Below are positions 8,696-54,744 of a DNA stretch of 64,000 nt, one piece after another. Position 1 is the first letter of the stretch, and each line of letters opens with the position of its first letter. The translations under genes and the position numbers were made by a program. The DNA comes from a virus. The notes beneath the pieces were generated by a model. That model was not told the origin of the DNA. It did no database searches and saw only the letters and a list, made by a program, of their open reading frames with translations. Where the stretch lies: the UHGV virus genome UHGV-1455077; one strand, given 5' to 3'.

Positions 8696-8724
8696 AAAAG
8701 GTGGTATTTTTACCACCTTTTTAA
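8694..8724. terminator. bidirectional rho-independent terminator (ggtggta tttt taccacc flanked by A-run and T-run)
   Basis: Perfect 7-bp stem with A6 upstream and T5 downstream, between convergent genes. Confidence 0.7.
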
Positions 8725-9488
8725 TTTGTAGAACCAACAACAATTCCGACTTTTGATGAAATATCATTTTTTCCACAAAAAACAATTTTATCAGCAAATA
8801 CTTTAATTTTATATTCATCATTAACCGCCATTGCTTTAAACATATTAATAAAATATTCAACGGAAAAATACATATTATCTTTAAATTCAATATTTTCTTC
8901 TTTATCAGAAATCTTAATTAAACCATTATCAATTGTTTGATTCTCATTTCCAAATAAAACAAAAATTCCTTCTGATGTATTTTTTAATCTAAAATTTTTT
9001 TCTGAAAGTAATGAACTCATTTTACTAATATTTTTAACAATTTCTTCTGTTATATAATCATCGCCTTCACCAGAAAATTCTTTTAAATTTAATTTTTTCT
9101 TTGTATAATTAGCTAATAAATCTTGCTGGCTTGATACCATATTATAACTTTGCAAATAATGATTAACTTTCAATCGTCCTGATGTAAATGTTGCTAAATG
9201 AGGATAATTATAATCATTATATGCTAATTTCACCTTCATTTTTTCTTCATTTTCACCAGAAAATGTACCTAAAATTGAACTCATTACGCTCCAATCTCTA
9301 ATTGCAAATTCTTTTTCTTCATAATTATCTTCATTAGATTCAGCATATACAAACACTTTATCATCAAATGTACGACAAGATATACAACAATGAGAAGTTG
9401 ATGACGGATATACAACAACTGGTTTAAACTCAAATTTGCTAAACAATTTATTCACATCTAAAAACATTTTTTCTAACATTTCTTTCAT
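8721..9488 (-). CDS. probable sliding clamp (gp45-like), 255 aa
   Basis: Size and motif pattern (EFAIRDW..SSILG..; YFINMFKAM...YKIKVFAD) resemble T4 gp45 (DVAIYDL..LGILS; FIINMANM...YKLLLWAK); adjacent to DNA polymerase. Confidence 0.4.
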   Translation of the reverse strand: MKEMLEKMFLDVNKLFSKFEFKPVVVYPSSTSHCCISCRTFDDKVFVYAESNEDNYEEKEFAIRDWSVMSSILGTFSGENEEKMKVKLAYNDYNYPHLATFTSGRLKVNHYLQSYNMVSSQQDLLANYTKKKLNLKEFSGEGDDYITEEIVKNISKMSSLLSEKNFRLKNTSEGIFVLFGNENQTIDNGLIKISDKEENIEFKDNMYFSVEYFINMFKAMAVNDEYKIKVFADKIVFCGKNDISSKVGIVVGSTN

Positions 9489-32232: not shown

Positions 32233-34371
32233 TTATCCGTGTAACGAATCATCAATAAATGTTCTTCGTTGAAATTCCCAATTTCTTCTTGTTGGATTCC
32301 AAGAATCTACTGGAACAAAGAAACCAACAACACGAGTAAAGTATTGCATATGTTCATTATGACCACATTTTGAACAACTTGCAACTTTATGGTCATAAAC
32401 TGAACCACACTCTGGACATTTTGAATAAACAGAATTTAATACAAAATGTTCACAACCACATTTAATAGCATATAAAATAATTTTTCTATTTTGTGCCGCT
32501 GTTGTTTTAGAACCTAATTGTGCGTGTACAATACCACCACCTGTTAATAACTGATTGTATTTTCCATCAGCTTCCAATTTTTCCCAAATAGTTGCATCTT
32601 CCCATAATGGAACAAACTGATTGGCATATAATGGAGCATCAATTATATTATCATTGAAAATTAAATTATCAACTGTTGCCAATCTTACAGCATAGGATTC
32701 TCCTGGAATCTGTTCAATATTAGAAAATAAACCTAATTCTTTTGCATATTCTTGTGAATGTTTATTTAAATAAACTAAATAATCATTCATTACATCCTGA
32801 CCTTCTTTAATTTCATCAGAAAATTTAGTTTCAAGGATTTTTTTAGCTTCAACAACACCCAGAATACCAAATGTTGAGAATAATCTATCCATACGAATCC
32901 AACCACGAGTAATAAATGGTTCAAGACCTTTAGCTTCCATTTTACCAATTAATACTTTATGAGCTTTTAAAACTTTTGCCGCACCACGAATTCTTTTATC
33001 TAAAATTTTATAGAAATCTTCCATTGAATTAGCTTCATATGCAATACGAGCAAAATTAATAGTTACAACACGATGTGAACCCATTGATACAGTTGAGCCA
33101 CCAAATGAATTAACTGTCGAACCCATATCTAATAATTCAGCATCATTAATTAAACGACAACAAGAAGCAACTTTTGTTCCCTTAGAAGTAAAAATATTGA
33201 ATCTTGTAATATCACGTTGGCAAACAAAATCAAAAAAGTTTTCATCTAAGATATTTCCATCATCATCTTTTGAAATATTCATAGTAGTAACAGGAAAACG
33301 ATATGGAATACCATTATTTAATGGGTCACCTTTTTCGTGGAATTTTGCATAAATTTCTTGTAATTCCATAATATAATTAATAACAAAATCTTTCCATTCA
33401 TCAGCAGACATTTTATCTTCTAATCCATTATCAAGAGCAATATCTTTTTTATTTGCAAAATACCATCCATAATTATCTGCACCAACTAAACCTGATAATT
33501 TTACTCTATCAAATAATGAAATATTAGTAAATGGAGATTCTACACCATTTCTCGACAAATGATTTACTGAATGAACAAATGTTTGAAAACAATTTTCAAT
33601 ATATTTTCTCATTGTTGGGTCATTTTTAACAACTTCAAATGGAACACGTTGTTTATAAATTAAAATATGTGCAATATCTAAGAAAAATGTTCCAACAGCA
33701 ATTGCACCTGCTAAATGAGAAGACATCTGATGTACAGTTTCATCTAATGCAGAAATATATGAATCAACACGATGAACAGGGGCAGATGGTAATTGACCGA
33801 ATTTACGACCTTCCATAACTAATTTAGAAGCATCTAATGCCCAACAATATGGAATTAAAATATTAGTTGAATCTGATAAGCCTAATGAAAAATCATATAA
33901 ATCACCAGATAATACTTTAGCTTCGGCTTGACCATATAAATCTTTCATTACTCCATAAAGCATATGATAACCAATCAATTTACGATTAGAAGCAGTAATT
34001 TCATTGTTTACGCCTGCAATTGTCTTTTCATTTTTATTTGAATTATCATCAATTGATACATCATTAACACGTGAATCTAAAATTTTTGCAAAGTTTGCCA
34101 ATGTATCAAAATTGGTAGCATCTAAACCGTGAATATTTAAAATTTTAGATGTTAATTCTTTTAATTCACCATTTGAAAATCCATATTTTTTCTTTAAAGC
34201 TGATGCTAAAGTTTTTTTAATATTTTTAATTGTTCGTGTTGTTTCCGCATTAATTAAAATATCGTCTGAAACTTTATCTAATTCTTTTTTAAAATCTTCA
34301 TCTTCATAGTAAGAATCCACAATAGTTGGACTCTTAACATTTAATATTTTTTTAACTGTCAAATCAGACAT
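32233..34371 (-). CDS. nrdD: anaerobic ribonucleoside-triphosphate reductase (class III), 712 aa
   Basis: Size, C-terminal Zn-ribbon CxxC...CxxC (CPECGS...CSKCGH) and glycyl-radical region ...TRVVGFF; followed by nrdG. Confidence 0.8.
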   Translation of the reverse strand: MSDLTVKKILNVKSPTIVDSYYEDEDFKKELDKVSDDILINAETTRTIKNIKKTLASALKKKYGFSNGELKELTSKILNIHGLDATNFDTLANFAKILDSRVNDVSIDDNSNKNEKTIAGVNNEITASNRKLIGYHMLYGVMKDLYGQAEAKVLSGDLYDFSLGLSDSTNILIPYCWALDASKLVMEGRKFGQLPSAPVHRVDSYISALDETVHQMSSHLAGAIAVGTFFLDIAHILIYKQRVPFEVVKNDPTMRKYIENCFQTFVHSVNHLSRNGVESPFTNISLFDRVKLSGLVGADNYGWYFANKKDIALDNGLEDKMSADEWKDFVINYIMELQEIYAKFHEKGDPLNNGIPYRFPVTTMNISKDDDGNILDENFFDFVCQRDITRFNIFTSKGTKVASCCRLINDAELLDMGSTVNSFGGSTVSMGSHRVVTINFARIAYEANSMEDFYKILDKRIRGAAKVLKAHKVLIGKMEAKGLEPFITRGWIRMDRLFSTFGILGVVEAKKILETKFSDEIKEGQDVMNDYLVYLNKHSQEYAKELGLFSNIEQIPGESYAVRLATVDNLIFNDNIIDAPLYANQFVPLWEDATIWEKLEADGKYNQLLTGGGIVHAQLGSKTTAAQNRKIILYAIKCGCEHFVLNSVYSKCPECGSVYDHKVASCSKCGHNEHMQYFTRVVGFFVPVDSWNPTRRNWEFQRRTFIDDSLHG

Positions 34372-34403
34372 TTAATTCTCCTTAAATCTCAAAAATATTT
34401 TTA

Positions 34404-34919
34404 TTAGTTTTTAAAATAGTATACACCATCTTGACTCAAACAACAATAATTCGAATCAAAAAGTTGCTGATTTGTTGAAGCAAATCTCATATATTCATCC
34501 ATCTTTTCTGAAGGTTGTGCATTATTTTCATCATACAAACCACATTTTACAAATGTAAAATTTTTAACATCCATCATTTTTACATAGTCAATATTATGAC
34601 CAGTATAAACACAAACCTCAAATGGTGATTTTTCAAGAAACTCTTTTGTAAATTGAACATTAAAACAAGATAATGGGTCGCCACCAGATAAAACAATTTT
34701 ATTTGTTCTATGACGTATTGATAATTGTTTTAATTCAGCAATTAATTCATCAACTGAATATTCTTTAGTTTCTGTATTAAAATCTGGATTTTTAAAGTTG
34801 GGGTTTTGACATTTTGGACAACCATTATCACAACCCATCATTACGACAACTAAACTACAATCTTCTTTATCAGGATAATCAAGCCAAGTTGAAGTAATTG
34901 GTTGTAAAATTCTTGTCAT
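34404..34919 (-). CDS. nrdG: anaerobic RNR activating protein, radical SAM (171 aa)
   Basis: CxxxCxxC (CDNGCPKC) near N-terminus; small size; adjacent to nrdD. Confidence 0.75.
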   Translation of the reverse strand: MTRILQPITSTWLDYPDKEDCSLVVVMMGCDNGCPKCQNPNFKNPDFNTETKEYSVDELIAELKQLSIRHRTNKIVLSGGDPLSCFNVQFTKEFLEKSPFEVCVYTGHNIDYVKMMDVKNFTFVKCGLYDENNAQPSEKMDEYMRFASTNQQLFDSNYCCLSQDGVYYFKN

Positions 34920-36314: not shown

Positions 36315-38117
36315 ATGAGATACAACCAAATATTAAATAAAACAATTAACAAATATAATAACTTCCTTTTTAATAAAATATTAAATGAAGGAATTGAAGA
36401 CATAAAAAAATATTTTCCAAAATTAGATGAAAAATCTTTACGTAAATTAATTTCTCTTGACCCAACTTATAAAGGCGGAGAACAATTAGGAAAATATGGT
36501 CAATGGATTATACGTTTATTCTATAATAATATAAAAAATATTGAGCGTAAAAAACAATTTAATGAATTATTACAACAATATCCAGATGGAATTAATCCTA
36601 AAACAGGTCAAAAATTTGAACAACCTAAAATGTTACCTGCTATTAAATCAGAAGATTTAGAAAAAATTCCAAATTCGTTAAAACAATATGAAATATATAA
36701 AAATAAAATTAAAAAGCCTATTGATTTATTTAAAACATTACCAGAATTAGATACGGAACTTGAAAAAATTAAATCATTAGGTATTCCAACAGATAAAAAA
36801 GTATTAGATAGATATAATCTTTTTGAAAAATATGCTGATAAAGGATTAAAGAAAATTTTTGAAAATGCTGATTGGATTATTGCAATTCCAACAAAATTAG
36901 AATGTTCAGTTCCATTTGGTGAATATACTTCTTGGTGTACAACATCACCTCACGGAAAATATTACTATTATTATTCTGATAAAGGATTATTATACATTCT
37001 TTTAAATAAGAAAACAGGGGAATTTTATCAATTCCACTTTGAAACTCAATCTTTTATGGATGCATCTGACAGTAGAATTAATATGGATACTTTTACAGAA
37101 AAATATCCTGACATTGCTAAATTTTTATTTAATTATCAAAAAGATTCTGTTGAAAATAAACCTTCACCTTTAATTCAACTACAAGAAACTTTTTCGGATT
37201 TATTAAAAAATCCAAATGAAATGAATAAAAGATTATTTCCATCAATTCATAATTTTAAAATTGAAGGAGATACAATAACAGGAACTATTGATTCATTTGA
37301 TGAGCTTGAAGATGTATATGATGATAATAGATATTCTATATCATTTGATTGGATTGATAAATTTATTCAAGACCCATATACTACTATAGATTTTCATCCA
37401 AGCTATTCCATTAGTGAAATCCAAAATATGTATATTGGTACCGATTGGGATAATTATGCCAAAAAAAATAATTTAAATATTTCTTTTGATGATTTATGTA
37501 CATTGGTAAGTATTTCTGATGAATTACCACAAAATCTTGAAACATTTTTAAATGAAGAATTTTCAGATTTAGGTGGATTTGTTGATACAGTTACCTCATT
37601 AGAAGAAACAGGAACAATAGATGAAGTTTTTAAACAGATTAAAGATTCTTTAGAATCGAATTTTCCAATATTTAAAAATATTGAATTTATAGATGATAAT
37701 ATTAAAATTTATTTAGAAATGCCTGTTCAATTTGCTTTTACTTATCTTGTTGTTGATAAATTAGGTTTAGATATTTTAGAAAAAGGAAATATTCCTTCTT
37801 ATAAAGAACCTATTCAACAGGAATTTAATTTTAATGAATCTAAATATAAATTTAAAGATGAATGGTATATGCAATGGGTTAAATATGATGACGATGATGA
37901 CCCTTGGGCATATAATGAAGAATATGAAAGAAATTGGTTATATGTTTATCGTTATTCTATAGATGATGGAAATGGTAAATTTAGTATTAGCGAATCAAAT
38001 TATAACTGGTATGGATTTGATGAGTCAGATTGGAAAATTATTTGTAACAATAGCACCGAAGAATTAAAACAATTAATTGGTGATAAAACATTACAAGATT
38101 TTATTAGTCAAGAATAA
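36315..38117 (+). CDS. hypothetical protein (600 aa), paralog of 61307..63019 (shared SWCT-containing N-terminal domain)
   Basis: Shared blocks LISLDPTYKG / QWIIRL / YTSWCTTSPHGKYYYYYSDKGLLYILLNKK versus LISFDPVLGN / RWLLKM / GASWCTGGDNCLYYDNYTADGTLYVIINKD. Confidence 0.5.
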   Translation: MRYNQILNKTINKYNNFLFNKILNEGIEDIKKYFPKLDEKSLRKLISLDPTYKGGEQLGKYGQWIIRLFYNNIKNIERKKQFNELLQQYPDGINPKTGQKFEQPKMLPAIKSEDLEKIPNSLKQYEIYKNKIKKPIDLFKTLPELDTELEKIKSLGIPTDKKVLDRYNLFEKYADKGLKKIFENADWIIAIPTKLECSVPFGEYTSWCTTSPHGKYYYYYSDKGLLYILLNKKTGEFYQFHFETQSFMDASDSRINMDTFTEKYPDIAKFLFNYQKDSVENKPSPLIQLQETFSDLLKNPNEMNKRLFPSIHNFKIEGDTITGTIDSFDELEDVYDDNRYSISFDWIDKFIQDPYTTIDFHPSYSISEIQNMYIGTDWDNYAKKNNLNISFDDLCTLVSISDELPQNLETFLNEEFSDLGGFVDTVTSLEETGTIDEVFKQIKDSLESNFPIFKNIEFIDDNIKIYLEMPVQFAFTYLVVDKLGLDILEKGNIPSYKEPIQQEFNFNESKYKFKDEWYMQWVKYDDDDDPWAYNEEYERNWLYVYRYSIDDGNGKFSISESNYNWYGFDESDWKIICNNSTEELKQLIGDKTLQDFISQE

Positions 38118-38193: not shown

Positions 38194-40089
38194 ATGAAAA
38201 ATGTATATTTAAGTGATAAATATTTTACGAGCCTTGATGATTTTAATAAGGATTTGATTGCCCACAAGTCAAATTTCTTTAAAGATTATCAAGGCTTTCC
38301 TTTTATATCGCTTTTAAATGCTCTTTCATACAATACTGATTTCAATACAAAAAATTATCGCTGGGGAAAACGTTATTTCAATATGGATAATAAAGATTTT
38401 TGTTGGATAACATCCAATGAGAATAAAAAAATCAATAAATCATTTTGGAATAAAGATACTTTTTCATATGTTTCTAAAGAAATTAATGCATACTTTACAG
38501 ATGTCAATATTAAAGAACATTTTTTATCTTGTTTTAAGCCGCATAGAAAAATTAATTTCTTTTATAAATTATCAAAAAATGAACAAAATGAATTAAAAAA
38601 TTATTCAACATCTTTACAAAATTTATATATGGTATCTGATAAAACCTATGGCTCATCACAACAAATAGGAACAGATATTCTTTTAATTGATATTGATAAT
38701 TATGAAGATAGACACGCTTTAGAAACTTTAAATATGTTTTTAGATTTTGTTAATTTAAAAATTAATGATTTAATTTTTATCGAACAAAATGCATTTACAG
38801 GTGGAATTCACACCGCTTTGAAATTACCTCAAGTAATTTCAAACATAAATTTCTATCCAACTTTAATGAAAGAACTTCAAAAAAATGATATTCGCATAGA
38901 ATGTAATTTCATTAATACCATTTTACGATTTCCATTATCTTTTGAATATGTTGCTATTCAAAAAGATGAACGCATTTTAAATTATGATGAATTTATTCCA
39001 ACACAATTTTGGGAAAATACTTTTGCAGATTATTTAAATAATTTGAATGATAATGTATGTAATTCAAATTATTTAAATGATTTAATTCTTAAAACACATA
39101 ATTTACAACCTGTTAATATATGGGAAAATTATTGGAAAACAAAAAAGAATCTATTCAAAAAAAATCAATCTATTGTTTTTAATAATGAAATTTATAAAAT
39201 TGAAAAAGGCAAAAGATATGAATCAATGTCTAAAATTATTCCATATTGTAAACTTCAAGGAATGAGTTTAGATGAAACTGTCAATACCATATTTGATAAT
39301 AATATTGATTCAAAGGATTTATTGAAATGGTCAAGAGAAAAATTAAAGAAAAATATAGAAAAATTCTTTAATAAATGCCCCGAACAAGCATTTACAACCA
39401 TTAAGAATTATAATAAATCTTTTATTTCTAATTTAGAAAAATTACCAACAATAACTCAAGATTTCTTAAATAATAAAACTTTTAACGAATGGTTTACTAA
39501 CCGTTTTATTAAATTCTATATGAAAGAAAGAAATAAACATAATAATTCTTTTAATTCTTTCTCAACTGAAAAAATAGAAATCTTAAATAAGCAGATACCT
39601 TATTTCTTAAAAGAAATAATTGGTAAAATGTTTTATGAAATTAATACAAATAAAGAATTTATTAATGAAGAATTTAATGTCGTATTGGGTTTTCAAATAT
39701 CTGACACCTATTTAAAAGCTCTACAAGAGCAATCAATTAGTGATTTAGGATTATCTGGTGCATTAGCTAAAACATCATTACAATACCTTAAAAAAGCTCT
39801 TATTAAAGCATTATCATTAACAGAAATTAAATATAAAAATAGAACAAGAAATTGGATGTTAGGTTCTTGTAAGTCATTTCGTATTAAAAACACAAATGAT
39901 TTATACAATCTATTAAACCATCTATTTAGAAGCTGTTTTAATAATATATATAATAAAGAATTTAGAATAAACAAATCTGAATTAAATAATTTACTTATTT
40001 TATATATACAACTCGTTGAAAAATATGACATTGTGCAGTATGATGAAGTAAATTTTATAATTGAAGCTATTCCAAAATATGAAACTTAA
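38194..40089 (+). CDS. hypothetical protein (631 aa)
   Basis: Long ORF; Asn/Lys-rich; no motif. Confidence 0.5.
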   Translation: MKNVYLSDKYFTSLDDFNKDLIAHKSNFFKDYQGFPFISLLNALSYNTDFNTKNYRWGKRYFNMDNKDFCWITSNENKKINKSFWNKDTFSYVSKEINAYFTDVNIKEHFLSCFKPHRKINFFYKLSKNEQNELKNYSTSLQNLYMVSDKTYGSSQQIGTDILLIDIDNYEDRHALETLNMFLDFVNLKINDLIFIEQNAFTGGIHTALKLPQVISNINFYPTLMKELQKNDIRIECNFINTILRFPLSFEYVAIQKDERILNYDEFIPTQFWENTFADYLNNLNDNVCNSNYLNDLILKTHNLQPVNIWENYWKTKKNLFKKNQSIVFNNEIYKIEKGKRYESMSKIIPYCKLQGMSLDETVNTIFDNNIDSKDLLKWSREKLKKNIEKFFNKCPEQAFTTIKNYNKSFISNLEKLPTITQDFLNNKTFNEWFTNRFIKFYMKERNKHNNSFNSFSTEKIEILNKQIPYFLKEIIGKMFYEINTNKEFINEEFNVVLGFQISDTYLKALQEQSISDLGLSGALAKTSLQYLKKALIKALSLTEIKYKNRTRNWMLGSCKSFRIKNTNDLYNLLNHLFRSCFNNIYNKEFRINKSELNNLLILYIQLVEKYDIVQYDEVNFIIEAIPKYET

Positions 40090-41154: not shown

Positions 41155-41821
41155 AATAATTGAACCAAGTGTTGAAATCGTAAGTGAAATTAATTCGGAT
41201 AAAATGTTAAAACAGATTGAAAAATGTGTCAGAAATTGTTATAAATCTGAAAATAATATTACTGAAGATACAACATCTGCTGTTAAAATGATTGGTAAAT
41301 TGATTGAAATGGGTCATACTGCAATGATTGAATTTGCTGATGTTATTGTTAATCTTCATTGTGATGTTGGTGTTTATAAAGATTTAACACGTCATCGTCA
41401 TTGCAGTTTTGCTATTGAATCTACAAGATATTGTAATTATTCTAAAGGTAAATTTGGAAATGAAATTTCTGTAATTAAACCTTGTAATATGGATGAAAAT
41501 TCTGGAATTTATCATACTTGGCTTAAAGCAATGAATGATATGGAAAGAGCATATATGCAGATGGCAGAAATTGGTGCAACACCTGACCAATTAAGAATGA
41601 TTCTTCCACACAGTACAGCCGCAAGTGTAATGATGAAAGCTAATATTAGAGAATGGCGACATATTTTTAATTTAAGATGTGCTAAAGCGGCTCATCCATC
41701 TGTTAGACAGATTATGCTTATGACTTTAAATGAATTTCATAATAAAATTCCAGTTTTATTTGATGATTTATATGAGCAATTTAAATTTGATATTGATGAT
41801 GTAAATAATAAAAAAGATTGA
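41147..41821 (+). CDS. thyX: flavin-dependent thymidylate synthase ThyX (224 aa)
   Basis: ThyX signature RHRHCSFAIESTRY (RHRxxSxxxxSxRY) and conserved H/R positions. Confidence 0.85.
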   Translation: MVKIIEPSVEIVSEINSDKMLKQIEKCVRNCYKSENNITEDTTSAVKMIGKLIEMGHTAMIEFADVIVNLHCDVGVYKDLTRHRHCSFAIESTRYCNYSKGKFGNEISVIKPCNMDENSGIYHTWLKAMNDMERAYMQMAEIGATPDQLRMILPHSTAASVMMKANIREWRHIFNLRCAKAAHPSVRQIMLMTLNEFHNKIPVLFDDLYEQFKFDIDDVNNKKD

Positions 41822-41833
41822 CAAATTAAATAA

Positions 41834-41866
41834 AGTGTGATATTGTAGTATCACACTTTATTTTTA
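41834..41866 (+). terminator. hairpin (agtgtgata ttgtag tatcacact) followed by T-run after thyX
   Basis: 9-bp stem then ttatttttagg; overlaps a promoter-like TTGACA-N17-TATTGT (41818..41846). Confidence 0.5.
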
Positions 41867-41877
41867 GGAAAAAAATT

Positions 41878-43224
41878 ATGAAATTTAATGATTATTTTAA
41901 ATTAAAAGATATAACGGTAAATGTTACAAATTCTTGTAATTTAAATTGTGTATATTGTTTTGAACATAATAAAAATGGAATGAAAATGTCTTCTGAAATG
42001 ATTGAAAAAATCATTGATGTTAGCTATAATAATTATTTAATAACAAATGAAACTAAATTTCCATTTGTTGTTAATTTTTTTGGTGGAGAACCATTTTTAG
42101 CATTTGATGTTATGGAACACGCTATGAAATATGCAAAAAATAAAAAATATCGTATTTCTTTTGGTGTTACAACTAATTTAACAATGCTTACAGACCATAT
42201 GATTGATGTTATTGAAGATTATGAGTTAGGTTTATTGGTATCTGTTGATGGAATAAAAAAAATACACGATAGAAATAGATGTAATTCTTATGATATTGTT
42301 ATGTCAAATTTAAATAAATTGATTGACCGAGGATTAAAGCATTTAGTTGAAGTTAGAATGACAGTTATGCCTGCTGATTTGAAAGATTTATTAACAGGTA
42401 TACAAGAATTATATAATATAGGAATTGATAATATTGCTCCTGTTCCAGTAACTGATACTGAATGGACAGATGCTGATTATATGAATTTACGAGATGAAAT
42501 GCATAAAATTTGGGAATGGGCATTTTCAATTTATAATGATGAAAATAATAAAAGAAATTTATCATTAAAATGTATTGATGATTATTTAGAAATGGTACTA
42601 AATCCAATCTTTTTAGTACCAGACCAACGAAAAGTTTGTACGGCTGGAACATTTTCTTCTTGTTCATTTGGTGTAACTGGGGATATTTTACCTTGTCATC
42701 AACGTCATACTATTTCAGACCATTATGATGAGTTAGTAATGGGCAATATTAATAATACTGATGAGATTAGAGAGGTTAATTTCAATAAACAAACAATTAT
42801 GAATGAAAATCATAATTGTGATGTATGTAATGCAAGAGCTGTATGTAAAGGTGGCTGTCCATCGGAAAATCTTACATTAAATAACGATGGTAATGTAATG
42901 AATGATGTTCAATGTAATGTATTAGCTTATATGGTTGATGTTGCAGAACAATTTCAATGGTATTTAATTAATGATAAAATTCCTAACATTCGTTCAAGAA
43001 AATTAAATATATTAAGTCAAAATGTTAAATTGTTAGACCATATAACAGATATTTTGCTAAATGAAAGAAGCATTAGGGAAAATGAGATTGAATTATTAAA
43101 ATTTTATGAAACTTTGGTTGATATGGAAGGAATTTTATTACCAAGTTTTAGAGAAGCTATAAATTATACTATTTCCCAGATGGTAAATATTATTGATGAA
43201 CAAATTAAAAATGAAGGTGTATAA
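41878..43224 (+). CDS. radical SAM enzyme with SPASM domain (448 aa)
   Basis: CNLNCVYC (CxxxCxxC), GGEP motif, C-terminal Cys clusters (CTAGTFSSCSFG...CHQ; CDVCNARAVCKGGCPSE) typical of SPASM peptide-modifying rSAMs. Confidence 0.8.
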   Translation: MKFNDYFKLKDITVNVTNSCNLNCVYCFEHNKNGMKMSSEMIEKIIDVSYNNYLITNETKFPFVVNFFGGEPFLAFDVMEHAMKYAKNKKYRISFGVTTNLTMLTDHMIDVIEDYELGLLVSVDGIKKIHDRNRCNSYDIVMSNLNKLIDRGLKHLVEVRMTVMPADLKDLLTGIQELYNIGIDNIAPVPVTDTEWTDADYMNLRDEMHKIWEWAFSIYNDENNKRNLSLKCIDDYLEMVLNPIFLVPDQRKVCTAGTFSSCSFGVTGDILPCHQRHTISDHYDELVMGNINNTDEIREVNFNKQTIMNENHNCDVCNARAVCKGGCPSENLTLNNDGNVMNDVQCNVLAYMVDVAEQFQWYLINDKIPNIRSRKLNILSQNVKLLDHITDILLNERSIRENEIELLKFYETLVDMEGILLPSFREAINYTISQMVNIIDEQIKNEGV

Positions 43225-44042
43225 TGGCTGATAGTAATATTGTTAATAGACAAGTTTATCAAGATATTCGTGATACTTTTAAACAAAGAGCAATGAATTG
43301 GAATGGTGTATGGAAGGTATGGACAAATCAATCTCCTGATTGGGGTGGTCGTTGGGTATATGGATGGAAAGGAGTAAGAATCCAAATGTATGATACTATT
43401 CCAGAATCTGTCCGTGATAAAATTCAAAAAGAATATACTGGATTATCGGGTGAAGTTAATCAAGTTATTAATGAAGAATCTTCAAAAATTCATACTTTAG
43501 GAAATGAAAATAATATTAGAAGGGCTGTAATTCAATTAAATAATACAACTGATGCAAATATTGGTGTATATATTGGAAGTGAAAAATTACCAAAAATTGA
43601 AGTTAAAACTATTGGTACTGCTGGTAATTTTAATCCAGATGTTAATATTGCTAATACTTCTGATGATTATACTGTTAATAAATACAATACTTCATATGTT
43701 AGAGATATTCCAGCCAATAAAATTGTTAATACAACAACAGGACAGGAAGTTCCTTTAAATGCTGTTATCACTAAGGATATTAATCAAAAAACTCAAATGG
43801 AAGGTTCAACAAATCCAACTGAATCATCTCAAGCAGAAGGTATTGTTAAAAAATCTGATTATGAATTAATAAGAAGTGTATTAGAAAGAATTAAAGATTG
43901 TTTGATTCAAAAGAATTCTTGGTTTACTTATAATGGGATTTGTAGCCGTAGTTGTCAAATTAATTGTCAAAATAGATGTCAAGTAAGTTGTCAAGGTTGT
44001 AATACAAAACAATGTCACGACCAAAATTGTGGGAGTGTTTAA
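43224..44042 (+). CDS. protein with Cys-Gln-repeat C-terminal tail (272 aa); candidate substrate of flanking rSAM enzymes
   Basis: C-terminus ICSRSCQINCQNRCQVSCQGCNTKQCHDQNCGSV (9 Cys in 34 aa, CxxxC spacing, encoded by TGTCAA repeats); start codon overlaps rSAM stop; N-terminus weakly resembles the small paralog family. Confidence 0.55.
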   Translation: MADSNIVNRQVYQDIRDTFKQRAMNWNGVWKVWTNQSPDWGGRWVYGWKGVRIQMYDTIPESVRDKIQKEYTGLSGEVNQVINEESSKIHTLGNENNIRRAVIQLNNTTDANIGVYIGSEKLPKIEVKTIGTAGNFNPDVNIANTSDDYTVNKYNTSYVRDIPANKIVNTTTGQEVPLNAVITKDINQKTQMEGSTNPTESSQAEGIVKKSDYELIRSVLERIKDCLIQKNSWFTYNGICSRSCQINCQNRCQVSCQGCNTKQCHDQNCGSV

Positions 44043-44045
44043 TTT

Positions 44046-45242
44046 ATGGAATTATTTGAAAAAATTACACGTATTGCAGTTAAACTTTATTCAGGTTGCA
44101 ATATGAAATGTTGTTATTGCTTTCAACCATATAATGATAAAATTAAACCACGAATTTTTTCTGATTATGATAATTTATATAAATTTGTTAAATCTTTGCC
44201 GTTATCTGATATTGTAATTGTTACATTAGTTGGTGGAGAGGTAACATTAAGACCTGATTTAGTAAAACTTTGTATTAAAAAAGTATTTAAAAGAATTGAG
44301 AGAGAACAAGATGTAACTTTTCATTGTGCAACTATTTCCAATGGAACTAATTTAGATATTTTACTTGATTTATGTAATGAAAATTATTTTTATTCTAAAC
44401 ATTGCTGTATTTCTTGGGATGGTTTATTTTCATCAAGTTTATCAAGAAAGATAAATGGAAAATATGATGATGAATATTTTAAAAATATGATACTACAATT
44501 GGGTAAATCTGAATACAATGATAAAATTTCCATAGTTCACGCTTTAACACCTGAAACTTTACCATATTTGGCTGATAGTTTTAAGTTTTGTTTTGATAAT
44601 AATGTTTTAAGTTTGGGTTATTATTATATTCACGAAGCAAATTATAATAGTGATTATATATATAAAGAATTTGAAAAACAAATTAGAAAAATTTGTGATA
44701 TGTATATTCAAAATGATAAAATTAATTTTTATAATTGGGTTAATTATTTTCAACGAAGAAGAAATCCTGATAATTTTTTTACTTGTGTAAAATTAGGAAA
44801 TAATTATTTTATTAATCCAGAAGGAGAAATTTATCCTTGTATTTATTTAGGAGACCATAAAGCATATAACCTTGGTAATATTAAAGATGGAATTGATTTA
44901 AATAAACAAAATGAATTTGTTAAGGAATATTATCATTATCCATTATGCAAATATAAAACTTGTAAATGTTATCAATGTTCTGAATGTCCTGCGGCTAATT
45001 ATGTTAATAATGGAAGTTTACATAAAAGATTTGAAGGGGCGTGTGAATTATATAAAATTGAAAATAAAGTTTTTGAAGAATATTATGAAAAAATAAAAAA
45101 TAATATAATGTTTAATAATGAATATTTAAATGAAATGTTGCCAACTTATGATTTGAATAAATTTACTGAATGTGATTTTGAATTTCATTATTCAGAATCC
45201 AAATCTCCAAATTTGAATATTGTTCAACAATGGAATAAATGA
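44046..45242 (+). CDS. radical SAM enzyme with SPASM-like C-terminal Cys cluster (398 aa)
   Basis: CNMKCCYC near N-terminus; GGE motif; C-terminal CIYLGD...CKYKTCKCYQCSECPAANY. Confidence 0.8.
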   Translation: MELFEKITRIAVKLYSGCNMKCCYCFQPYNDKIKPRIFSDYDNLYKFVKSLPLSDIVIVTLVGGEVTLRPDLVKLCIKKVFKRIEREQDVTFHCATISNGTNLDILLDLCNENYFYSKHCCISWDGLFSSSLSRKINGKYDDEYFKNMILQLGKSEYNDKISIVHALTPETLPYLADSFKFCFDNNVLSLGYYYIHEANYNSDYIYKEFEKQIRKICDMYIQNDKINFYNWVNYFQRRRNPDNFFTCVKLGNNYFINPEGEIYPCIYLGDHKAYNLGNIKDGIDLNKQNEFVKEYYHYPLCKYKTCKCYQCSECPAANYVNNGSLHKRFEGACELYKIENKVFEEYYEKIKNNIMFNNEYLNEMLPTYDLNKFTECDFEFHYSESKSPNLNIVQQWNK

Positions 45243-46401
45243 AATGAAGAAAACAACTTTACCGCCAATGATAAATCATTGTTTTTTGATGTTATCTGAA
45301 CAATGTAATTTAAGATGTAAGTATTGTTATATTCAAGGGAGAGATAATCCATATACTATTGATATTTCGGTAATGGAAAAAATTAAAAAAATGTTTACTT
45401 GCTATAATAAGCCACGAATTATATTTTTTGGTGGAGAACCATTATTAAGAGTGAATTTAATTAAAGAAATTGTTAAAAAATATAAAGATGATTTTCAATA
45501 TCAAGTTGTTACAAATGGAACAGTAAATTTTAATGAATTTATGGATGAAGTATATCAACCATTTAATCATATTTTTGATGTTCAAATTTCGTGGGATGGT
45601 AATATTGATACTCGTAAATCTGTAACTAATAAGATTACAAATAATATTGTATATGATAATATTATTACTCAATTAAAAAAAGGGTATAGATTAGAAGGAA
45701 GATGTGTTTTAGATGAAACATCAGTAAAAAATTTTTTTGAAACTTACAAAATATTTAAAGATTTACATCATACATATAAATTTAGTGGAGATTTTACAAT
45801 AGCTCATCAGCCCCAATTTAAAGAATCATATTGGAATGATTTGGAAGTTCAATTAAATTTGATTTTTTCTGATATTAAAAATAATTTAGTTAATGATAAT
45901 AAAATTTATATTCCACGATTTTTATATAAAAACATTACTAATGTTATTGAAAATAAGCCAGTAATATCTTGTGATGTTGGAAATTATGTTGTTATCCGTC
46001 CAAATGGAGATATATATCCTTGTACTATTTTATCGCAAATAGATGAAAGATTTAAAATGGGGAATATCAATGATGAAATTGATACAGAAATTATAGACGA
46101 TTTAAAATATAAATCATCTTGTAAAAAAGAATGTGAATATAAATCTATATGTGATGGTGGTTGTCGTTATGAAAGAATAAAAAATTTTTCAAATAGTTGG
46201 AAAGAAAATATATGCCCATTTACTTGTGAAATTTATAAGGTTATTTATGAATGTACAAACAAATTTTTAAATTCATTAGATGCTGACCAACAGAATAAAT
46301 TGTATGAACTGATTACTCAATATAATTTATGGAGTATTGATTATTGTAATGGTAGTTCAAAATTAAATAAAGATGACGGAATGATAAAATTAAATGTATA
46401 A
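45220..46401 (+). CDS. radical SAM enzyme with SPASM-like C-terminal Cys cluster (393 aa)
   Basis: CNLRCKYC; GGEP; C-terminal CTILSQ...CKKECEYKSICDGGCRYE; overlaps upstream gene by 23 nt. Confidence 0.75.
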   Translation: MFNNGINEMKKTTLPPMINHCFLMLSEQCNLRCKYCYIQGRDNPYTIDISVMEKIKKMFTCYNKPRIIFFGGEPLLRVNLIKEIVKKYKDDFQYQVVTNGTVNFNEFMDEVYQPFNHIFDVQISWDGNIDTRKSVTNKITNNIVYDNIITQLKKGYRLEGRCVLDETSVKNFFETYKIFKDLHHTYKFSGDFTIAHQPQFKESYWNDLEVQLNLIFSDIKNNLVNDNKIYIPRFLYKNITNVIENKPVISCDVGNYVVIRPNGDIYPCTILSQIDERFKMGNINDEIDTEIIDDLKYKSSCKKECEYKSICDGGCRYERIKNFSNSWKENICPFTCEIYKVIYECTNKFLNSLDADQQNKLYELITQYNLWSIDYCNGSSKLNKDDGMIKLNV

Positions 46402-46428
46402 ATAATTTATATATTTTAAGGAAATAAA

Positions 46429-47571
46429 ATGATAATTTTTATGCCAGAACGTGTTTATGAATATTTTAAAAATGATGATTTTTTAAATGAAAAAATTAAA
46501 GAAATTAGTAATAAAGTTTATAATGAATCTCAACATTATGATTTAAAAAATTTTTTAAGTATTGATGAACATATTTTTGATGAAGTTAATCAATATATGT
46601 TGAATAATGTTTCAGATGAATTGCGTGATGAATTAAATATTTGCTTAAATGGTTATAATCAAAAAGCTAATTTATTTGCTAAGAATATTGAAAAATATGA
46701 TATTGAAACTCAAATATATTTAATGTATATGCTTAATGATGGAGATATGAGTCCGTCAGAAGATTTATTTAATAGATATAAACGAATTAATGAATTATAT
46801 GAACAAAATGATTTAAATTTTTCGGCTTTTATACATACCATTTATTATTTTACAAATTTATATTTACAATGGGTTGATAGTGATAATTTGAAAAAAATTA
46901 ATGAAAATGGATTTTTTTCATATCAAGAAGTGAAAAAAATGTTAAGCTATGAAGATACATTATTTTCTAAAATGAAAAATAAAGTAAATTCTGAACAATA
47001 TTTTAATATTTTATTTCATAAACGAATTCAAATGATGTATCTTTTTATGTTGTTTATTGGACAATTTAGTGAAAATTTTGATGATGTCGTTGAATTAATT
47101 ATTAGAAAAATTTATGATAATAGATTTAAATATGATAATTTTAATTATTTAAAATTGGCAATTAATCATATCTTTTTTCAAACATATTTTGATAAAGGAG
47201 ATTTTACTAAAGCTAAGAAATATTTAATGTATAATATATCTATGATTAATTATGGATTTGCTCATAAATTTGAAATGGTTAAAGCATTAAACCATTTTAA
47301 TAAGATTTTTAGTAAAGAATTTTGTAATTATTTGTTTTTCTTATATACAATGATTCGTGTTTATATTCCAAGTTTACAAAAAGAATTTAATATTTTAAAT
47401 AGTGAAAATGCCACGGAATTTGAAAAGAGATTGTTATTTGGTAAATTGCAAGATGATGAAAAAATGTTCGGTTTAGATTTAAATCCAAATGAATGGTTAT
47501 CTTTTAAATGGTGTCAACTTAATAAAAGTTCGTTTGATTATTTTAATAAAAATGTTGACAATTTATCTTAA
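46429..47571 (+). CDS. hypothetical protein (380 aa)
   Basis: ORF following rSAM operon; no motif. Confidence 0.5.
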   Translation: MIIFMPERVYEYFKNDDFLNEKIKEISNKVYNESQHYDLKNFLSIDEHIFDEVNQYMLNNVSDELRDELNICLNGYNQKANLFAKNIEKYDIETQIYLMYMLNDGDMSPSEDLFNRYKRINELYEQNDLNFSAFIHTIYYFTNLYLQWVDSDNLKKINENGFFSYQEVKKMLSYEDTLFSKMKNKVNSEQYFNILFHKRIQMMYLFMLFIGQFSENFDDVVELIIRKIYDNRFKYDNFNYLKLAINHIFFQTYFDKGDFTKAKKYLMYNISMINYGFAHKFEMVKALNHFNKIFSKEFCNYLFFLYTMIRVYIPSLQKEFNILNSENATEFEKRLLFGKLQDDEKMFGLDLNPNEWLSFKWCQLNKSSFDYFNKNVDNLS

Positions 47572-47615
47572 ATAATTTATAATCTTCATAAAAAATAATT
47601 TATGGAGATTTTTTT

Positions 47616-54183: not shown

Positions 54184-54744
54184 GTGGAAATATTATTACC
54201 AGAAAATGAACCATTTAATTTAAATCAACCAAAAAGTAAATTAATAGATTCTAAAATATGTGTATTTGATTATTCTGATAAAGATGATAAGGATTTTTTA
54301 TTTAAAAAAATAACATCATTTTTTTCTTATGGGTATCATATGGTAGAATTGCAAATTGGGCAGAAGTATAAATTAGAAGTTCCTTTAAATTGGAGAGTAA
54401 TGGTTATTAATGACCACGATTTAATGTGTCAGCTTGTATCTATTGATGAGTTATTGCATTTTAATCATCAAACAGTTATTTTTAATCCTTTTTATGTTGG
54501 TATACCAAAAATTGTTGACATTAAAATAAATTCTGTTAATATAAACAAAGTTCAATGTTTTGTTCCTAAATTACCAAAGAAAAATTTATTGGTTACGCCT
54601 TTAGGAACAAAAAAGGATTGGGATAATAAAATTATTGATAAAAATACTGGAAAAGTTTCATATTATCCCGATTGTATAATGATGTGTGATGATATTGATA
54701 CGTCAAAATGTGAACTGGATTTATATGACGATATAATCGTTTAA
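54184..54744 (+). CDS. hypothetical protein (186 aa)
   Basis: ORF. Confidence 0.45.
   Translation: MEILLPENEPFNLNQPKSKLIDSKICVFDYSDKDDKDFLFKKITSFFSYGYHMVELQIGQKYKLEVPLNWRVMVINDHDLMCQLVSIDELLHFNHQTVIFNPFYVGIPKIVDIKINSVNINKVQCFVPKLPKKNLLVTPLGTKKDWDNKIIDKNTGKVSYYPDCIMMCDDIDTSKCELDLYDDIIV

What the first reader, a model, noticed from the sequence alone, without database searches (positions are those of the whole stretch)
41878..46401. Operon of three radical-SAM/SPASM enzymes around a protein with a Cys-Gln repeat tail: candidate phage RiPP-like or thioether cross-linking system
Four translationally coupled genes sit together, with stop/start overlaps at 43224 and 45220.
- Three are paralogous rSAM enzymes with CxxxCxxC (CNLNCVYC, CNMKCCYC, CNLRCKYC), GGEP motifs and C-terminal auxiliary-cluster Cys motifs. 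This is the architecture of peptide-modifying SPASM maturases such as anSME, sactisynthases and QhpD.
- Between rSAM 1 and rSAM 2 lies a 272-aa protein. Its last 34 residues are CSRSCQINCQNRCQVSCQGCNTKQCHDQNCGSV, with regular CxxxC spacing. At the DNA level this tail is a run of TGTCAA repeats.

This looks like a precursor or substrate plus three modifying enzymes. Radical SAM genes are known to be numerous in some AT-rich T4-like (Campylobacter) phages, but their substrates are undescribed. The system implies an anaerobic or microaerobic intracellular chemistry.
Basis: partly seen in the sequence, partly recalled or inferred. Interest (0 to 1): 0.8.

Follow-up and report, generated by a model that had tools for sequence, protein, structure and literature searches.

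The report
Phage enzymes cross-linking a protein's cysteine tail
A large gut-type phage carries a conserved five-gene cassette in which radical-SAM enzymes most likely staple the cysteine/glutamine-rich end of a phage protein with non-reducible sulfur-carbon bridges; this chemistry is known from small bacterial peptides but has not been described in phages or on a full-size protein like this one.

Summary
At 41878-46401 lie three radical-SAM/SPASM genes around a 272-aa protein that ends in C-x3-(CQxx)x4-C-N-x3-CH-x-Q-x-CG. Corrections:
- rSAM3 most likely starts at ATG 45244.
- The three enzymes share 25% identity or less.
- A fifth gene (46429-47571) belongs to the unit.

- The C-terminal ~66 residues (helix plus Cys/Gln tail) form a module on more than 100 protein clusters of 71-950 aa with unrelated N-terminal parts.
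- In 82 of 82 viral loci with enough upstream sequence, an rSAM1 ortholog lies upstream, usually within about 30 bp.
- In 11 representative loci from other phages, the only ORFs within 10 kb resembling anything in the window are cassette genes.
- The module resembles the core of SCIFF ranthipeptides (up to 11/13 identical).
- rSAM1 matches the SCIFF maturase CteB at all six published active-site positions but has no RRE domain.
- rSAM2 and rSAM3 have their own active-site profiles.
- The module is essentially absent from cellular genomes, and public records leave it unannotated.

Most likely this is a phage-borne, protein-fused, multi-enzyme variant of ranthipeptide-type thioether cross-linking. 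The chemistry and the biological role are untested.

The parts
41818..41870 (+). Intergenic region after thyX. It holds a sigma70-like TTGACA-17-TATTGT site (with TG) overlapping a hairpin (AAAGTGTGATA/TATCACACTTT) followed by a T-run. Possible operon boundary or promoter.
   Evidence: Consensus match only; function not shown.
41878..43224 (+). rSAM1: radical-SAM/SPASM enzyme similar to the SCIFF maturases CteB/ScfB, without an N-terminal RRE and with a conserved C-terminal extension of about 95 aa. It is the constant partner of the tail module.
   Evidence: PF04055 61.5 bits. NCBIfam PapB family 194 bits (cutoff 340), QhpD 133, SCIFF maturase 118. CteB 5wgg E 3.7e-22, aligned from CteB residue 96. 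Seven conserved SPASM Cys. Active-site profile F28-F68-T98-S122-H274-Q275 identical to CteB/ScfB. Immediately upstream of the module gene in 82/82 loci.
43224..44042 (+). Carrier/substrate protein (272 aa): conserved N-terminal part, variable middle, then the C-terminal module.
   Evidence: No Pfam, NCBIfam or PHROG hit. Homologs P0001-P0015 and alignment A1. AF2 model pLDDT 64, pTM 0.67. No fold match in PDB or BFVD apart from its own entry.
43851..43940 (+). Module part 1: amphipathic helix (residues about 210-228) and the W-F/W-x turn that precede the Cys-rich core. Candidate recognition element.
   Evidence: AF2 helix with pLDDT above 90 in the module-only model. Conserved in the 121-hit profile search, which mostly matches profile positions about 200-272.
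43941..44039 (+). Module part 2: SCIFF-like core C-x3-CQxx-CQxx-CQxx-CQ-x-CN-x3-CH-x-Q-x-CG (residues 240-272). Presumed site of modification.
   Evidence: Invariant columns. Family members match the SCIFF core at up to 11/13; the window's own tail matches at 7/13. Sub-threshold hits only to radical-SAM target models TIGR04117, TIGR04114, SCIFF.
44046..45242 (+). rSAM2: radical-SAM/SPASM enzyme of a second conserved subfamily, with its own active-site profile (F26-V62-I97-S123-I266-Y267).
   Evidence: PF04055 47.5 bits and PF13186 21.7 bits. PapB family 85 bits and TIGR04119 CXXX_matur 36 bits, both below cutoff. Orthologs 29-42% identical in unrelated phages..
45244..46401 (+). rSAM3: radical-SAM/SPASM enzyme of a third conserved subfamily (profile Y-F-V-S-T-I). 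Start corrected from TTG 45220 to ATG 45244.
   Evidence: PF04055 41.5 bits, PF13186 27.6 bits. TIGR04085 SPASM 48.8 bits, above its cutoff of 27. The 385-aa product is on 101 contigs. Orthologs 30-39% identical in unrelated phages..
46429..47571 (+). Fifth cassette component: a 380-aa protein of a new family (N-terminal M..YLPERIY..IK motif), with no conserved Cys. Role unknown; possibly a scaffold, chaperone or recognition factor.
   Evidence: One or two homologs in 78/88 loci, interleaved with the rSAM genes. Alignment A3. No match in PDB, Pfam or PHROGs. Not a degenerate rSAM (hhalign probability 1% or less against 99.5% or more for controls).

Best explanation
This is a phage-specific maturation cassette that post-translationally modifies the C-terminal end of a phage protein. 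The substrate is the last ~33 residues of the 272-aa protein, a SCIFF-like Cys/Gln ladder preceded by a conserved helix.

rSAM1 resembles the SCIFF maturases CteB/ScfB. It has three [4Fe-4S] clusters: the SAM cluster plus two SPASM clusters held by seven Cys, so one iron is free to bind a substrate thiolate. It cleaves SAM, abstracts a side-chain hydrogen from an acceptor residue, and joins that carbon to a tail cysteine sulfur, forming non-alpha thioether (ranthipeptide-type) bridges. The invariant Gln after each Cys (Q245, Q249, Q253, Q257, then N260) is the most likely acceptor. Each Gln lies i+5 from the preceding Cys, as Thr37 lies from Cys32 in SCIFF, or i-3 from the next Cys, as in NxxC. 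The result would be a ladder of small rings.

rSAM2 and rSAM3 are separate conserved subfamilies with different active sites. They would add further or different modifications to the same tail. The 380-aa partner probably helps present the substrate, since none of the enzymes has an RRE.

The product is most likely kept on the protein as a rigid, protease-resistant and non-reducible C-terminal knot, on a carrier whose variable middle looks like a surface or binding domain.

Shown: the gene anatomy, the conservation, the co-occurrence, and the family and active-site similarities. Inferred: that the enzymes act on the tail, the thioether chemistry, the acceptor, the roles of rSAM2, rSAM3 and the 380-aa protein, and the fate and function of the product.
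For: 1. Linkage. 89 module-bearing ORFs in 17 families (136-605 aa, unrelated N-termini). 82/82 loci with at least 1.5 kb upstream have an rSAM1 ortholog as nearest upstream rSAM, mostly -32 to +21 bp away. In 11 representative loci from other phages (one has an RNAP beta-prime-like gene), the only ORFs within 10 kb resembling anything in the 64-kb window are rSAM1, rSAM2, rSAM3, the module and, in one locus, the 380-aa gene.
2. Substrate-like tail. 8 Cys, 4 Gln, His and Gln invariant or nearly so across 102 sequences. Genuine SCIFF precursors recovered in L094/L095 read CGECQTSCQSACKTSCTVGNQ.CE, and module members match CQTSCQSACKTSC at up to 11/13. The only models that respond are radical-SAM target families: TIGR04117 at 19 bits, TIGR04114, and SCIFF at 18 bits on L054.
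3. Enzyme. rSAM1's best families are all thioether-forming maturases: PapB 194 bits, QhpD 133, SCIFF maturase 118. Best structure is CteB. It has the seven-Cys SPASM set. All six catalytic-site proximity positions defined for CteB in PMC10288494 are identical in rSAM1 orthologs (20, 20, 20, 20, 18 and 15 of 20) and in two genuine ScfB enzymes. anSME differs at 4 of 6.
4. No compact metal-knuckle fold is predicted. The core models as a low-confidence helix with all Cys on one face, a geometry that suits i/i+3 to i+5 staples.
5. Context. Translational coupling and ribosome-binding sites for all five genes. Inteins sit in the catalytic loop of the rSAM1 and rSAM2 orthologs in L006, as is usual for conserved, important enzymes. 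The phage encodes an anaerobic RNR, consistent with oxygen-sensitive chemistry.
Against: - There is no biochemical or proteomic evidence.
- All family scores are below the curated cutoffs, and SCIFF and CXXX models score below threshold on the tail.
- The similarity between Cys-rich low-complexity sequences could be convergent.
- rSAM1 lacks the RRE that CteB and PapB use to bind their substrates, so recognition is unexplained.
- Gln is not among the acceptors named in the papers read: Asp/Glu, Thr, Asn (PMC8326336, PMC12373016). PapB did not process a C-terminal L-Gln substrate (PMC12373016).
- Many loci come from related contigs, so the 82 loci are not 82 independent events. The 17 substrate families and the non-syntenic lineages are the real sample.
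- Two T4-like relatives (L005, L013) show only rSAM1 near the gene, so rSAM2 and rSAM3 may be dispensable or located elsewhere.
Confidence: 0.6

Rival explanations
1. The enzymes do modify the tail, but the chemistry is not non-alpha thioether formation. Alternatives include Cys-to-formylglycine oxidation as in anSME, alpha-carbon (sactionine) thioethers, epimerisation, C-C or C-methyl modification, or a mix in which only one enzyme makes thioethers.
For: rSAM2 and rSAM3 have conserved active-site profiles unlike CteB. anSME, NirJ, AhbD-like and other SPASM families also score, though weakly. RRE-less architecture is shared with anSME. The sactisynthases GggB and QmpB are reported to look ranthisynthase-like by the same profiling (PMC10288494). 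Gln is an unprecedented acceptor in the papers read.
Against: rSAM1 matches CteB/ScfB at 6/6 positions, while anSME matches at 2/6. The top three NCBIfam hits for rSAM1 are thioether-forming maturases, well above anSME (194, 133 and 118 bits against 79). The tail has the SCIFF core pattern.
Confidence: 0.2
2. The tail is a metal-binding (Zn or Fe-S) or disulfide-forming structural or oligomerisation element, for example a Cys stripe on a helix in a fibre trimer, that needs no enzymatic modification. The radical-SAM genes next to it act on something else, such as nucleotides, DNA or a cofactor.
For: Eight Cys and one His could bind metals. AF2 places the CxxxC repeats on one helical face. In the T4-like lineage the cassette sits among nucleotide-metabolism genes (thyX, ligase, NrdD). 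Carriers contain fibre-like and carbohydrate-binding inserts, as expected of structural proteins.
Against: The adjacency survives in phages that share nothing else with the window, and the neighbours thyX and ligase are not conserved there. The only conserved part of the neighbouring protein is the tail module. The Gln after each Cys is invariant, which a thiolate-metal site does not require. The enzymes belong to peptide- and protein-modifying SPASM families, not QueE/MoaA-type small-molecule enzymes. No confident knuckle-like fold is predicted.
Confidence: 0.1
3. The protein is a true RiPP precursor with an unusually large leader. After modification, the ~33-residue tail is cleaved off and acts as a free peptide, for example a mimic of the host's SCIFF ranthipeptide signal that interferes with clostridial quorum sensing or with competitors.
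For: The core resembles SCIFF. SCIFF-derived ranthipeptides are listed with a quorum-sensing role in Clostridia (PMC8326336, table cited). Short members exist (71-139 aa: P0106, P0029, P0028). Weak host hints point to Firmicutes bins. The module is always C-terminal, as a core peptide would be.
Against: No protease or exporter is found in the cassette in any locus examined. N-terminal parts are large, diverse and domain-bearing (CBM5/12, discoidin, Gly-rich minor-tail-like), which is unlike a leader. No conserved cleavage motif such as GG is evident before the core.
Confidence: 0.1

Closest known systems
SCIFF ranthipeptide system (precursor SCIFF/CteA plus maturase ScfB/CteB; Clostridia)
   Same: The Cys-every-fourth core with CQxxCQxxC(K/Q)xxC matches at up to 11/13. 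The maturase is the closest solved structure, has the seven-Cys SPASM set, and has identical residues at the six CteB active-site positions. Enzyme and substrate genes are adjacent.
   Different: The substrate is the tail of a 136-950 aa modular protein, not a ~45-aa peptide. Gene order is reversed (enzyme first). The enzyme lacks the N-terminal RRE. Two to five further SPASM enzymes and a new ~380-aa protein accompany it. The tail has extra conserved elements (Gln after every Cys, CH.Q.CG end). It is found in phages, not Clostridia. All model scores are below cutoffs.
PapB/PapA (freyrasin) ranthipeptide system
   Same: PapB is the best-scoring NCBIfam family for all three enzymes. In both, the substrate has a short repeated Cys-containing motif that receives several thioether staples (six CX3D in PapA; PMC10177961).
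   Different: Scores of 194, 85 and 104 bits against a cutoff of 340. There are no Asp/Glu acceptors in the tail. PapB needs a carboxylate acceptor and an RRE-bound leader (PMC12373016).
QhpD/QhpC (quinohemoprotein amine dehydrogenase gamma-subunit maturation)
   Same: A SPASM enzyme related to ranthisynthases installs Cys-to-side-chain thioethers in a protein subunit that remains part of a functional protein (PMC8326336). It is the second-best NCBIfam hit for rSAM1.
   Different: 133 bits against a cutoff of 453. QhpD aligns from its position 91, so the phage enzyme lacks its N-terminal part. Acceptors there are Asp/Glu. No dehydrogenase genes are present in the cassette.
CXXX-repeat peptide systems (TIGR04117/TIGR04114 targets with TIGR04115/TIGR04119 maturases) and NxxC ranthipeptides (NxxcB)
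   Same: Same Cys period of four in the target. There are weak hits of the tail to TIGR04117 (19 bits), of rSAM1 to TIGR04115 (82 bits), and of the rSAM2 C-terminus to TIGR04119 (36 bits). The QxxC spacing parallels the Asn-x-x-Cys ring of NxxcA (PMC8326336).
   Different: All scores are far below cutoffs (50, 350, 150). Those systems are bacterial and act on short peptides. The acceptor in NxxcA is Asn, not Gln.
Anaerobic sulfatase-maturing enzyme (anSME)
   Same: An RRE-less radical-SAM/SPASM enzyme that acts on a folded or unfolded protein rather than a leader-bearing peptide.
   Different: 79 bits against a cutoff of 349. It differs at 4 of 6 active-site positions. No sulfatase and no C/S-x-P-x-R motif are in the substrate. 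anSME clusters are fully ligated by eight Cys, whereas the phage enzymes conserve seven (the anSME ligation is from established knowledge of its structure).

Membership tests
Radical SAM superfamily with SPASM domain | CxxxCxxC SAM-cluster motif and PF04055 above the gathering score | tested here: met
   All three: 61.5, 47.5 and 41.5 bits against 29.5. The motif Cys are 100% conserved in orthologs.
Radical SAM superfamily with SPASM domain | C-terminal seven-Cys SPASM motif (CX9-15GX4C ... CX2CX5CX3C ... C) | tested here: met
   rSAM2 and rSAM3 pass PF13186 (21.7 and 27.6 bits against 21.5), and rSAM3 passes TIGR04085 (48.8 against 27). rSAM1 gives no PF13186 hit, but it has the canonical motif C254...G-x4-C273...C314-x2-C317-x5-C323-x3-C327...C346, fully conserved, and aligns to the CteB SPASM domain. 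rSAM2 and rSAM3 have variant spacings.
SCIFF maturase (ScfB/CteB, TIGR03974) | Score at or above the curated cutoff of the equivalog model | tested here: not met
   118, 40 and 64 bits against a cutoff of 425.
SCIFF maturase (ScfB/CteB, TIGR03974) | N-terminal RRE (PqqD-like) domain that binds the leader peptide | tested here: not met
   Alignments start at CteB residue 96 and model position 95, opposite rSAM1 residues 8-9. Neither the rSAM1 C-terminal extension nor the 380-aa family resembles the ScfB RRE (hhalign probability below 1%).
SCIFF maturase (ScfB/CteB, TIGR03974) | [quoted passage not shown] | tested here: met
   rSAM1 has F28, F68, T98, S122, H274, Q275, kept in 20, 20, 20, 20, 18 and 15 of 20 orthologs and identical in two genuine ScfB enzymes. 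Not met by rSAM2 (2/6) or rSAM3 (2/6).
SCIFF precursor (PF13165 / TIGR03973) | Short (~45 aa) peptide with a leader and six Cys, scoring above the model threshold | tested here: not met
   The window protein is 272 aa with no hit. The best family member (L054, 199 aa) scores 18.2 bits against 27. TIGR03973 gives E of 2 or more.
SCIFF precursor (PF13165 / TIGR03973) | Core pattern C-x2-CQxxCQxxCKxxC followed by a further Cys | tested here: met
   Genuine SCIFF sequences from L094 and L095 compared with the module: up to 11/13 identical in family members and 7/13 in the window tail, with the Cys and Gln register the same.
PapB-family ranthipeptide maturase (NF047865) | Score at or above the cutoff, and a substrate with CX3D/E motifs | tested here: not met
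   194, 85 and 104 bits against 340. The tail has one Asp and no CX3D/E repeat.
CXXX-repeat peptide system (TIGR04117/04114 targets; TIGR04115/04119 maturases) | Target and maturase models above their cutoffs | tested here: not met
   Targets: 19 bits or less against 50, and 11.6 against 20. Maturases: 82 against 350 (rSAM1) and 36 against 150 (rSAM2).
Anaerobic sulfatase-maturing enzyme (TIGR03942) | Score at or above the cutoff, and a sulfatase substrate with the C/S-x-P-x-R motif | tested here: not met
   79 and 68 bits against 349. No such motif is in the carrier protein. No sulfatase lies among the neighbouring genes scanned. The whole ~290-kb genome was not examined.
QhpD (TIGR03906) | Score at or above the cutoff, and co-occurrence with qhpA/B/C | tested here: not met
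   133 bits against 453. No quinohemoprotein amine dehydrogenase genes are in the cassette in any locus.
Ranthipeptide-type modification (chemistry) | S-C(beta/gamma) thioether between Cys and an acceptor side chain, shown by MS and NMR | not testable with these tools
   Requires anaerobic co-expression or in vitro reconstitution, then MS/MS and NMR.

The most novel reading that the evidence does not exclude
Phages of anaerobic, host-associated microbiomes use a dedicated multi-enzyme radical-SAM cassette to install a ladder of non-reducible thioether staples, with Gln as a new acceptor residue, on the C-terminus of modular surface or binding proteins (virion fibres or decorations). This would replace disulfides, which cannot be relied on in reducing habitats. 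rSAM2, rSAM3 and the 380-aa protein would add chemistry and a substrate-recognition mode (RRE-independent) not yet described for SPASM enzymes.
Probability: 0.3. Interest if true: 0.9.

Novelty: new variant of a known kind. Interest (0 to 1): 0.75.

Why it matters
Radical-SAM/SPASM thioether chemistry is known from small bacterial peptides (SCIFF, freyrasin, NxxcA) and from one enzyme subunit (QhpC). Its biological purpose is largely unknown even for SCIFF, which is near-universal in Clostridia.

Here the same kind of core is fused to full-size, domain-bearing phage proteins. It is served by up to five or six SPASM enzymes plus a new partner protein, and the cassette is conserved across unrelated large phages that recur in hundreds of metagenomic contigs. 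If confirmed, this would be:
1. The first ranthipeptide-type system in viruses.
2. A case of protein-level, not peptide-level, stapling with a likely new acceptor (Gln).
3. An RRE-independent mode of substrate recognition.
4. A source of three well-defined enzyme subfamilies and a compact ~66-residue tag for enzymatic protein stapling.
5. A concrete, testable function for some of the many unexplained radical-SAM genes in phage genomes.

Tried and rejected
- Near and protein-level searches of INPHARED with the region, the carrier, a divergent rSAM1 ortholog and a 380-aa family member found no deposited phage with the cassette, so no virion proteomics could be linked.
- Fold searches of the carrier model against PDB and BFVD found nothing but its own unannotated entry.
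- Profile searches of the 380-aa family against PDB sequences, Pfam and PHROGs found nothing. The idea that it is a degenerate radical-SAM protein was rejected (hhalign probability 1% or less).
- The idea that rSAM1's C-terminal extension or the 380-aa protein is a relocated RRE found no support.
- Campylobacter-phage affiliation was rejected. Sheath and polymerase point to distant jumbo myoviruses at about 33% identity, and Campylobacter phage rSAMs are about 19-20% identical.
- A DNA- or nucleotide-modification role, suggested by the thyX neighbour and by phage thymidine-hypermodification rSAMs (PMC8989533, seen), was rejected. The thyX adjacency is confined to the T4-like lineage, while the adjacency to the tail module is universal.
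- Expression timing from promoter motifs was inconclusive.
- The word-indexed homolog search with the module alignment gave few hits.
- A deeper module-only AF2 run gave no confident fold for the Cys-rich part. It therefore neither supports nor excludes a metal site.

Full report
**What is in the window.** The window is an AT-rich (about 26% GC) segment of a large myovirus. It carries a T4-type baseplate wedge, sheath, family-B polymerase, neck protein gp13, anaerobic ribonucleotide reductase NrdD with its activase, ThyX and an NAD-dependent ligase. There is no close DNA relative among deposited phages. The sheath is only about 33% identical to those of jumbo Vibrio and Escherichia phages. A 99%-identical copy of the central protein is in BFVD/UniProt as 'Uncharacterized protein, Myoviridae sp. 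ctWb16'. Contigs carrying these exact proteins reach 288-293 kb and number in the hundreds. Public records name the three enzymes 'Fe-S oxidoreductase' and the other two proteins 'hypothetical'.

**Check of the observation.** The four ORFs are real and at the stated coordinates.
- The CxxxCxxC motifs are as quoted. Radical_SAM is above threshold in all three enzymes and SPASM in two.
- The rSAM1 stop and the start of the 272-aa gene overlap by one base, and every gene has a plausible ribosome-binding site.
- The tail (residues 240-272) is the only run of three or more CxxxC units in six-frame translation of the window.

Corrections:
- rSAM3 almost certainly starts at ATG 45244, one base after the rSAM2 stop, and not at TTG 45220. 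That 385-aa product is the one on record on 101 contigs.
- rSAM2 has GGEV, not GGEP.
- TGTCAA occurs four times at 12-nt spacing, not in tandem.
- The three enzymes are 25% identical or less.

**The tail is a widespread C-terminal module.** Homologs of the 272-aa protein keep the tail almost letter for letter while the rest drifts to about 35% identity. The middle of the protein accepts inserts, including CBM5/12 and F5/8-type-C domains. An exhaustive profile search of 1.84 billion representatives found 121 proteins. Most share only the last ~70 residues: an amphipathic helix, a W-(F/W/Y)-D turn, and C-x-RSCQ-xx-CQ-xx-CQ-xx-CQ-x-C-x4-CH-x-Q-x-CG. This is always at the C-terminus of proteins 71-950 aa long, and a few carry ten or more CQxx/CExx units. 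Gln follows Cys2-5 in 98, 100, 90 and 100 of 102 sequences, and the His is invariant. Some larger carriers contain the Gly-rich segments typical of minor-tail and fibre proteins.

**Linkage to the enzymes.** Eighty viral loci were fetched with the module alone as query, in addition to the loci fetched earlier.
- Across all of these, 89 module-bearing ORFs fall into 17 families.
- Every one of the 82 loci with at least 1.5 kb of upstream sequence has an rSAM1 ortholog as the nearest upstream radical-SAM gene, usually -32 to +21 bp away.
- Relatives of the window phage share the whole neighbourhood.
- In eleven representative loci from other phages, the only ORFs within 10 kb that resemble anything in the 64-kb window are orthologs of rSAM1 (34-42% identity), rSAM3 (30-39%), rSAM2 (29-42%) and the module. 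One of these phages has an RNA-polymerase beta-prime-like gene.
- The three enzymes are therefore three old orthologous subfamilies that travel with the module. The number of SPASM genes per locus ranges from one to six.

**A fifth component.** Members share an N-terminal M..YLPERIY..IK motif. The family has no match in Pfam, PHROGs or PDB sequences, and it is not a degenerate radical-SAM protein.

**Phage specificity.** A specific back-translated pattern scanned over one genome from each of 185,579 species gave three true hits. One is a 283-kb, 25%-GC contig that is a relative of this phage, and two are short contigs binned into Firmicutes MAGs. The other two matches were chance. No paper in the searchable library describes the module or the cassette.

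**What the enzymes are.**
- For all three, the best NCBIfam model is the PapB-family ranthipeptide maturase. For rSAM1 the next are QhpD and the SCIFF maturase. All are below the curated cutoffs.
- The closest solved structure to rSAM1 is CteB, the SCIFF thioether synthase. The alignment starts at CteB residue 96, so the RRE domain is absent.
- Each subfamily conserves exactly seven Cys in its SPASM domain. By analogy with CteB (PMC10177961, PMC8326336), that arrangement leaves one iron of auxiliary cluster I free for a substrate thiolate.
- Using the six active-site positions defined for CteB (PMC10288494), rSAM1 and its orthologs are F-F-T-S-H-Q. This is identical to CteB and to two genuine SCIFF maturases recovered here.
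- rSAM2 and rSAM3 each conserve a different profile. anSME differs from CteB at four of the six positions.

**What the tail resembles.** Two 'UNVERIFIED Bacteriophage sp.' records turned out to carry canonical SCIFF precursor and maturase pairs. That gave real SCIFF sequences...GGCGECQTSCQSACKTSCTVGNQ.CE.
- Module members match the SCIFF core CQTSCQSACKTSC at up to 11 of 13 positions, and the window's own tail at 7 of 13, in the same Cys/Gln register.
- Family scans of tails respond only to radical-SAM target models (CXXX-repeat targets, SCIFF), always below threshold.
- So the tail works like, and looks like, an extended SCIFF core, but it is not a member of that family.

**Structure predictions.** The whole protein models at moderate confidence (pTM 0.67) as three long helices plus strands, with a disordered tail. 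The module alone gives a confident first helix, a turn, a low-confidence second helix through the CxxxCQ repeats, and a disordered end, with no knuckle-like metal site. On a helix, a four-residue period puts all Cys on one face with Gln beside them.

**Most likely mechanism (inference).**
1. rSAM1 binds the module by an unknown, RRE-independent route, possibly through its conserved C-terminal extension (NIRSR.LN.L..NLK) or through the 380-aa partner.
2. It ligates a tail Cys to the open iron of its first auxiliary cluster.
3. It abstracts a side-chain hydrogen from a nearby acceptor and forms an S-C bond.

The invariant Gln residues are the natural acceptor candidates. They lie i+5 from the preceding Cys, as Thr37 lies from Cys32 in SCIFF, and i-3 from the next Cys, as Asn lies in NxxC (PMC8326336). 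Known acceptors (Asp/Glu, Thr, Asn) all carry a functional group next to the attacked carbon, as Gln does. Gln itself is not among the acceptors in the papers read, and PapB requires a carboxylate (PMC12373016). rSAM2 and rSAM3 would add further or different modifications. The product probably stays on the protein, as in QhpC, since no protease or exporter accompanies the cassette and the carriers bear binding-type domains.

**Rivals.**
- Other chemistry on the same tail: 0.2.
- An unmodified metal or disulfide element with unrelated neighbouring enzymes: 0.1.
- A released SCIFF-mimicking peptide: 0.1.

**Verdict.** It extends to a five-gene, phage-specific, widely conserved cassette. It is a new variant of a known kind: ranthipeptide-type SPASM maturation, here protein-fused, RRE-less, multi-enzyme and viral. 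Biochemistry is needed for the chemistry and proteomics for the role.

Noticed in passing
L006 5615-8011 and 9096-11330 (also L007): The rSAM1 and rSAM2 orthologs of a related phage each carry an intein with a LAGLIDADG endonuclease, inserted at the third Cys of the CxxxCxxC cluster-binding motif.
   Followed up: partly
L094 3534-5125 (MT835472) and L095 1020-2663 (MT835702): GenBank records labelled 'UNVERIFIED: Bacteriophage sp.' from human faeces carry canonical SCIFF precursor and ScfB maturase pairs at 38-41% GC. They may be clostridial DNA or prophage rather than lytic phage.
   Followed up: partly
window 47555-47583: A perfect sigma70 consensus (TTGACA, 17 nt, TATAAT) lies 33 nt upstream of the NAD-dependent ligase gene. 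Similar near-consensus sites precede the genes at 54184 and 8721-9488(-), which suggests host-RNAP early promoters.
   Followed up: no
window 46396-46403: A T4-late-like TATAAATA spans the rSAM3 stop codon, 32 nt upstream of the 380-aa gene. The window has 15 copies on both strands, five of them within 90 nt upstream of a gene start, including the baseplate wedge gene.
   Followed up: partly
window 41838-41870: An 11-bp-stem hairpin (AAAGTGTGATA / TATCACACTTT) followed by a T-run lies between thyX and rSAM1. The terminator scan missed it because the stem is AT-rich. It overlaps the -10 of a sigma70-like site.
   Followed up: no
window 32233-34919 (-): An anaerobic ribonucleotide reductase NrdD and a small radical-SAM activase (NrdG-like, 171 aa). 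This is a fourth radical-SAM gene in the window, unrelated to the cassette, and points to an anaerobic host.
   Followed up: partly
L048 9797-10680, L050 9785-10687, L045 8636-12012: Some phages carry two module-bearing genes in the same cassette, in tandem or separated by a 380-aa-family gene.
   Followed up: no
P0099, P0101, P0131; L093 1835-2734: Some family members carry long arrays (10 or more units) of CQxx/CExx/CMxx before the conserved CH.Q.CG end, which suggests the number of staple sites is expandable.
   Followed up: no
window 36315-38117 and 38194-40089 (+): Two large proteins (600 and 631 aa) between gp13 and the cassette have no Pfam or PHROG match. They are conserved in the T4-like relatives but not in the other cassette-bearing phages.
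   Followed up: no
L038 11306-12508 and 12524-13642: Two ORFs downstream of the 605-aa carrier resemble the non-tail part of the window's carrier protein (28-29% identity over about 90 aa) but lack the Cys tail.
   Followed up: no
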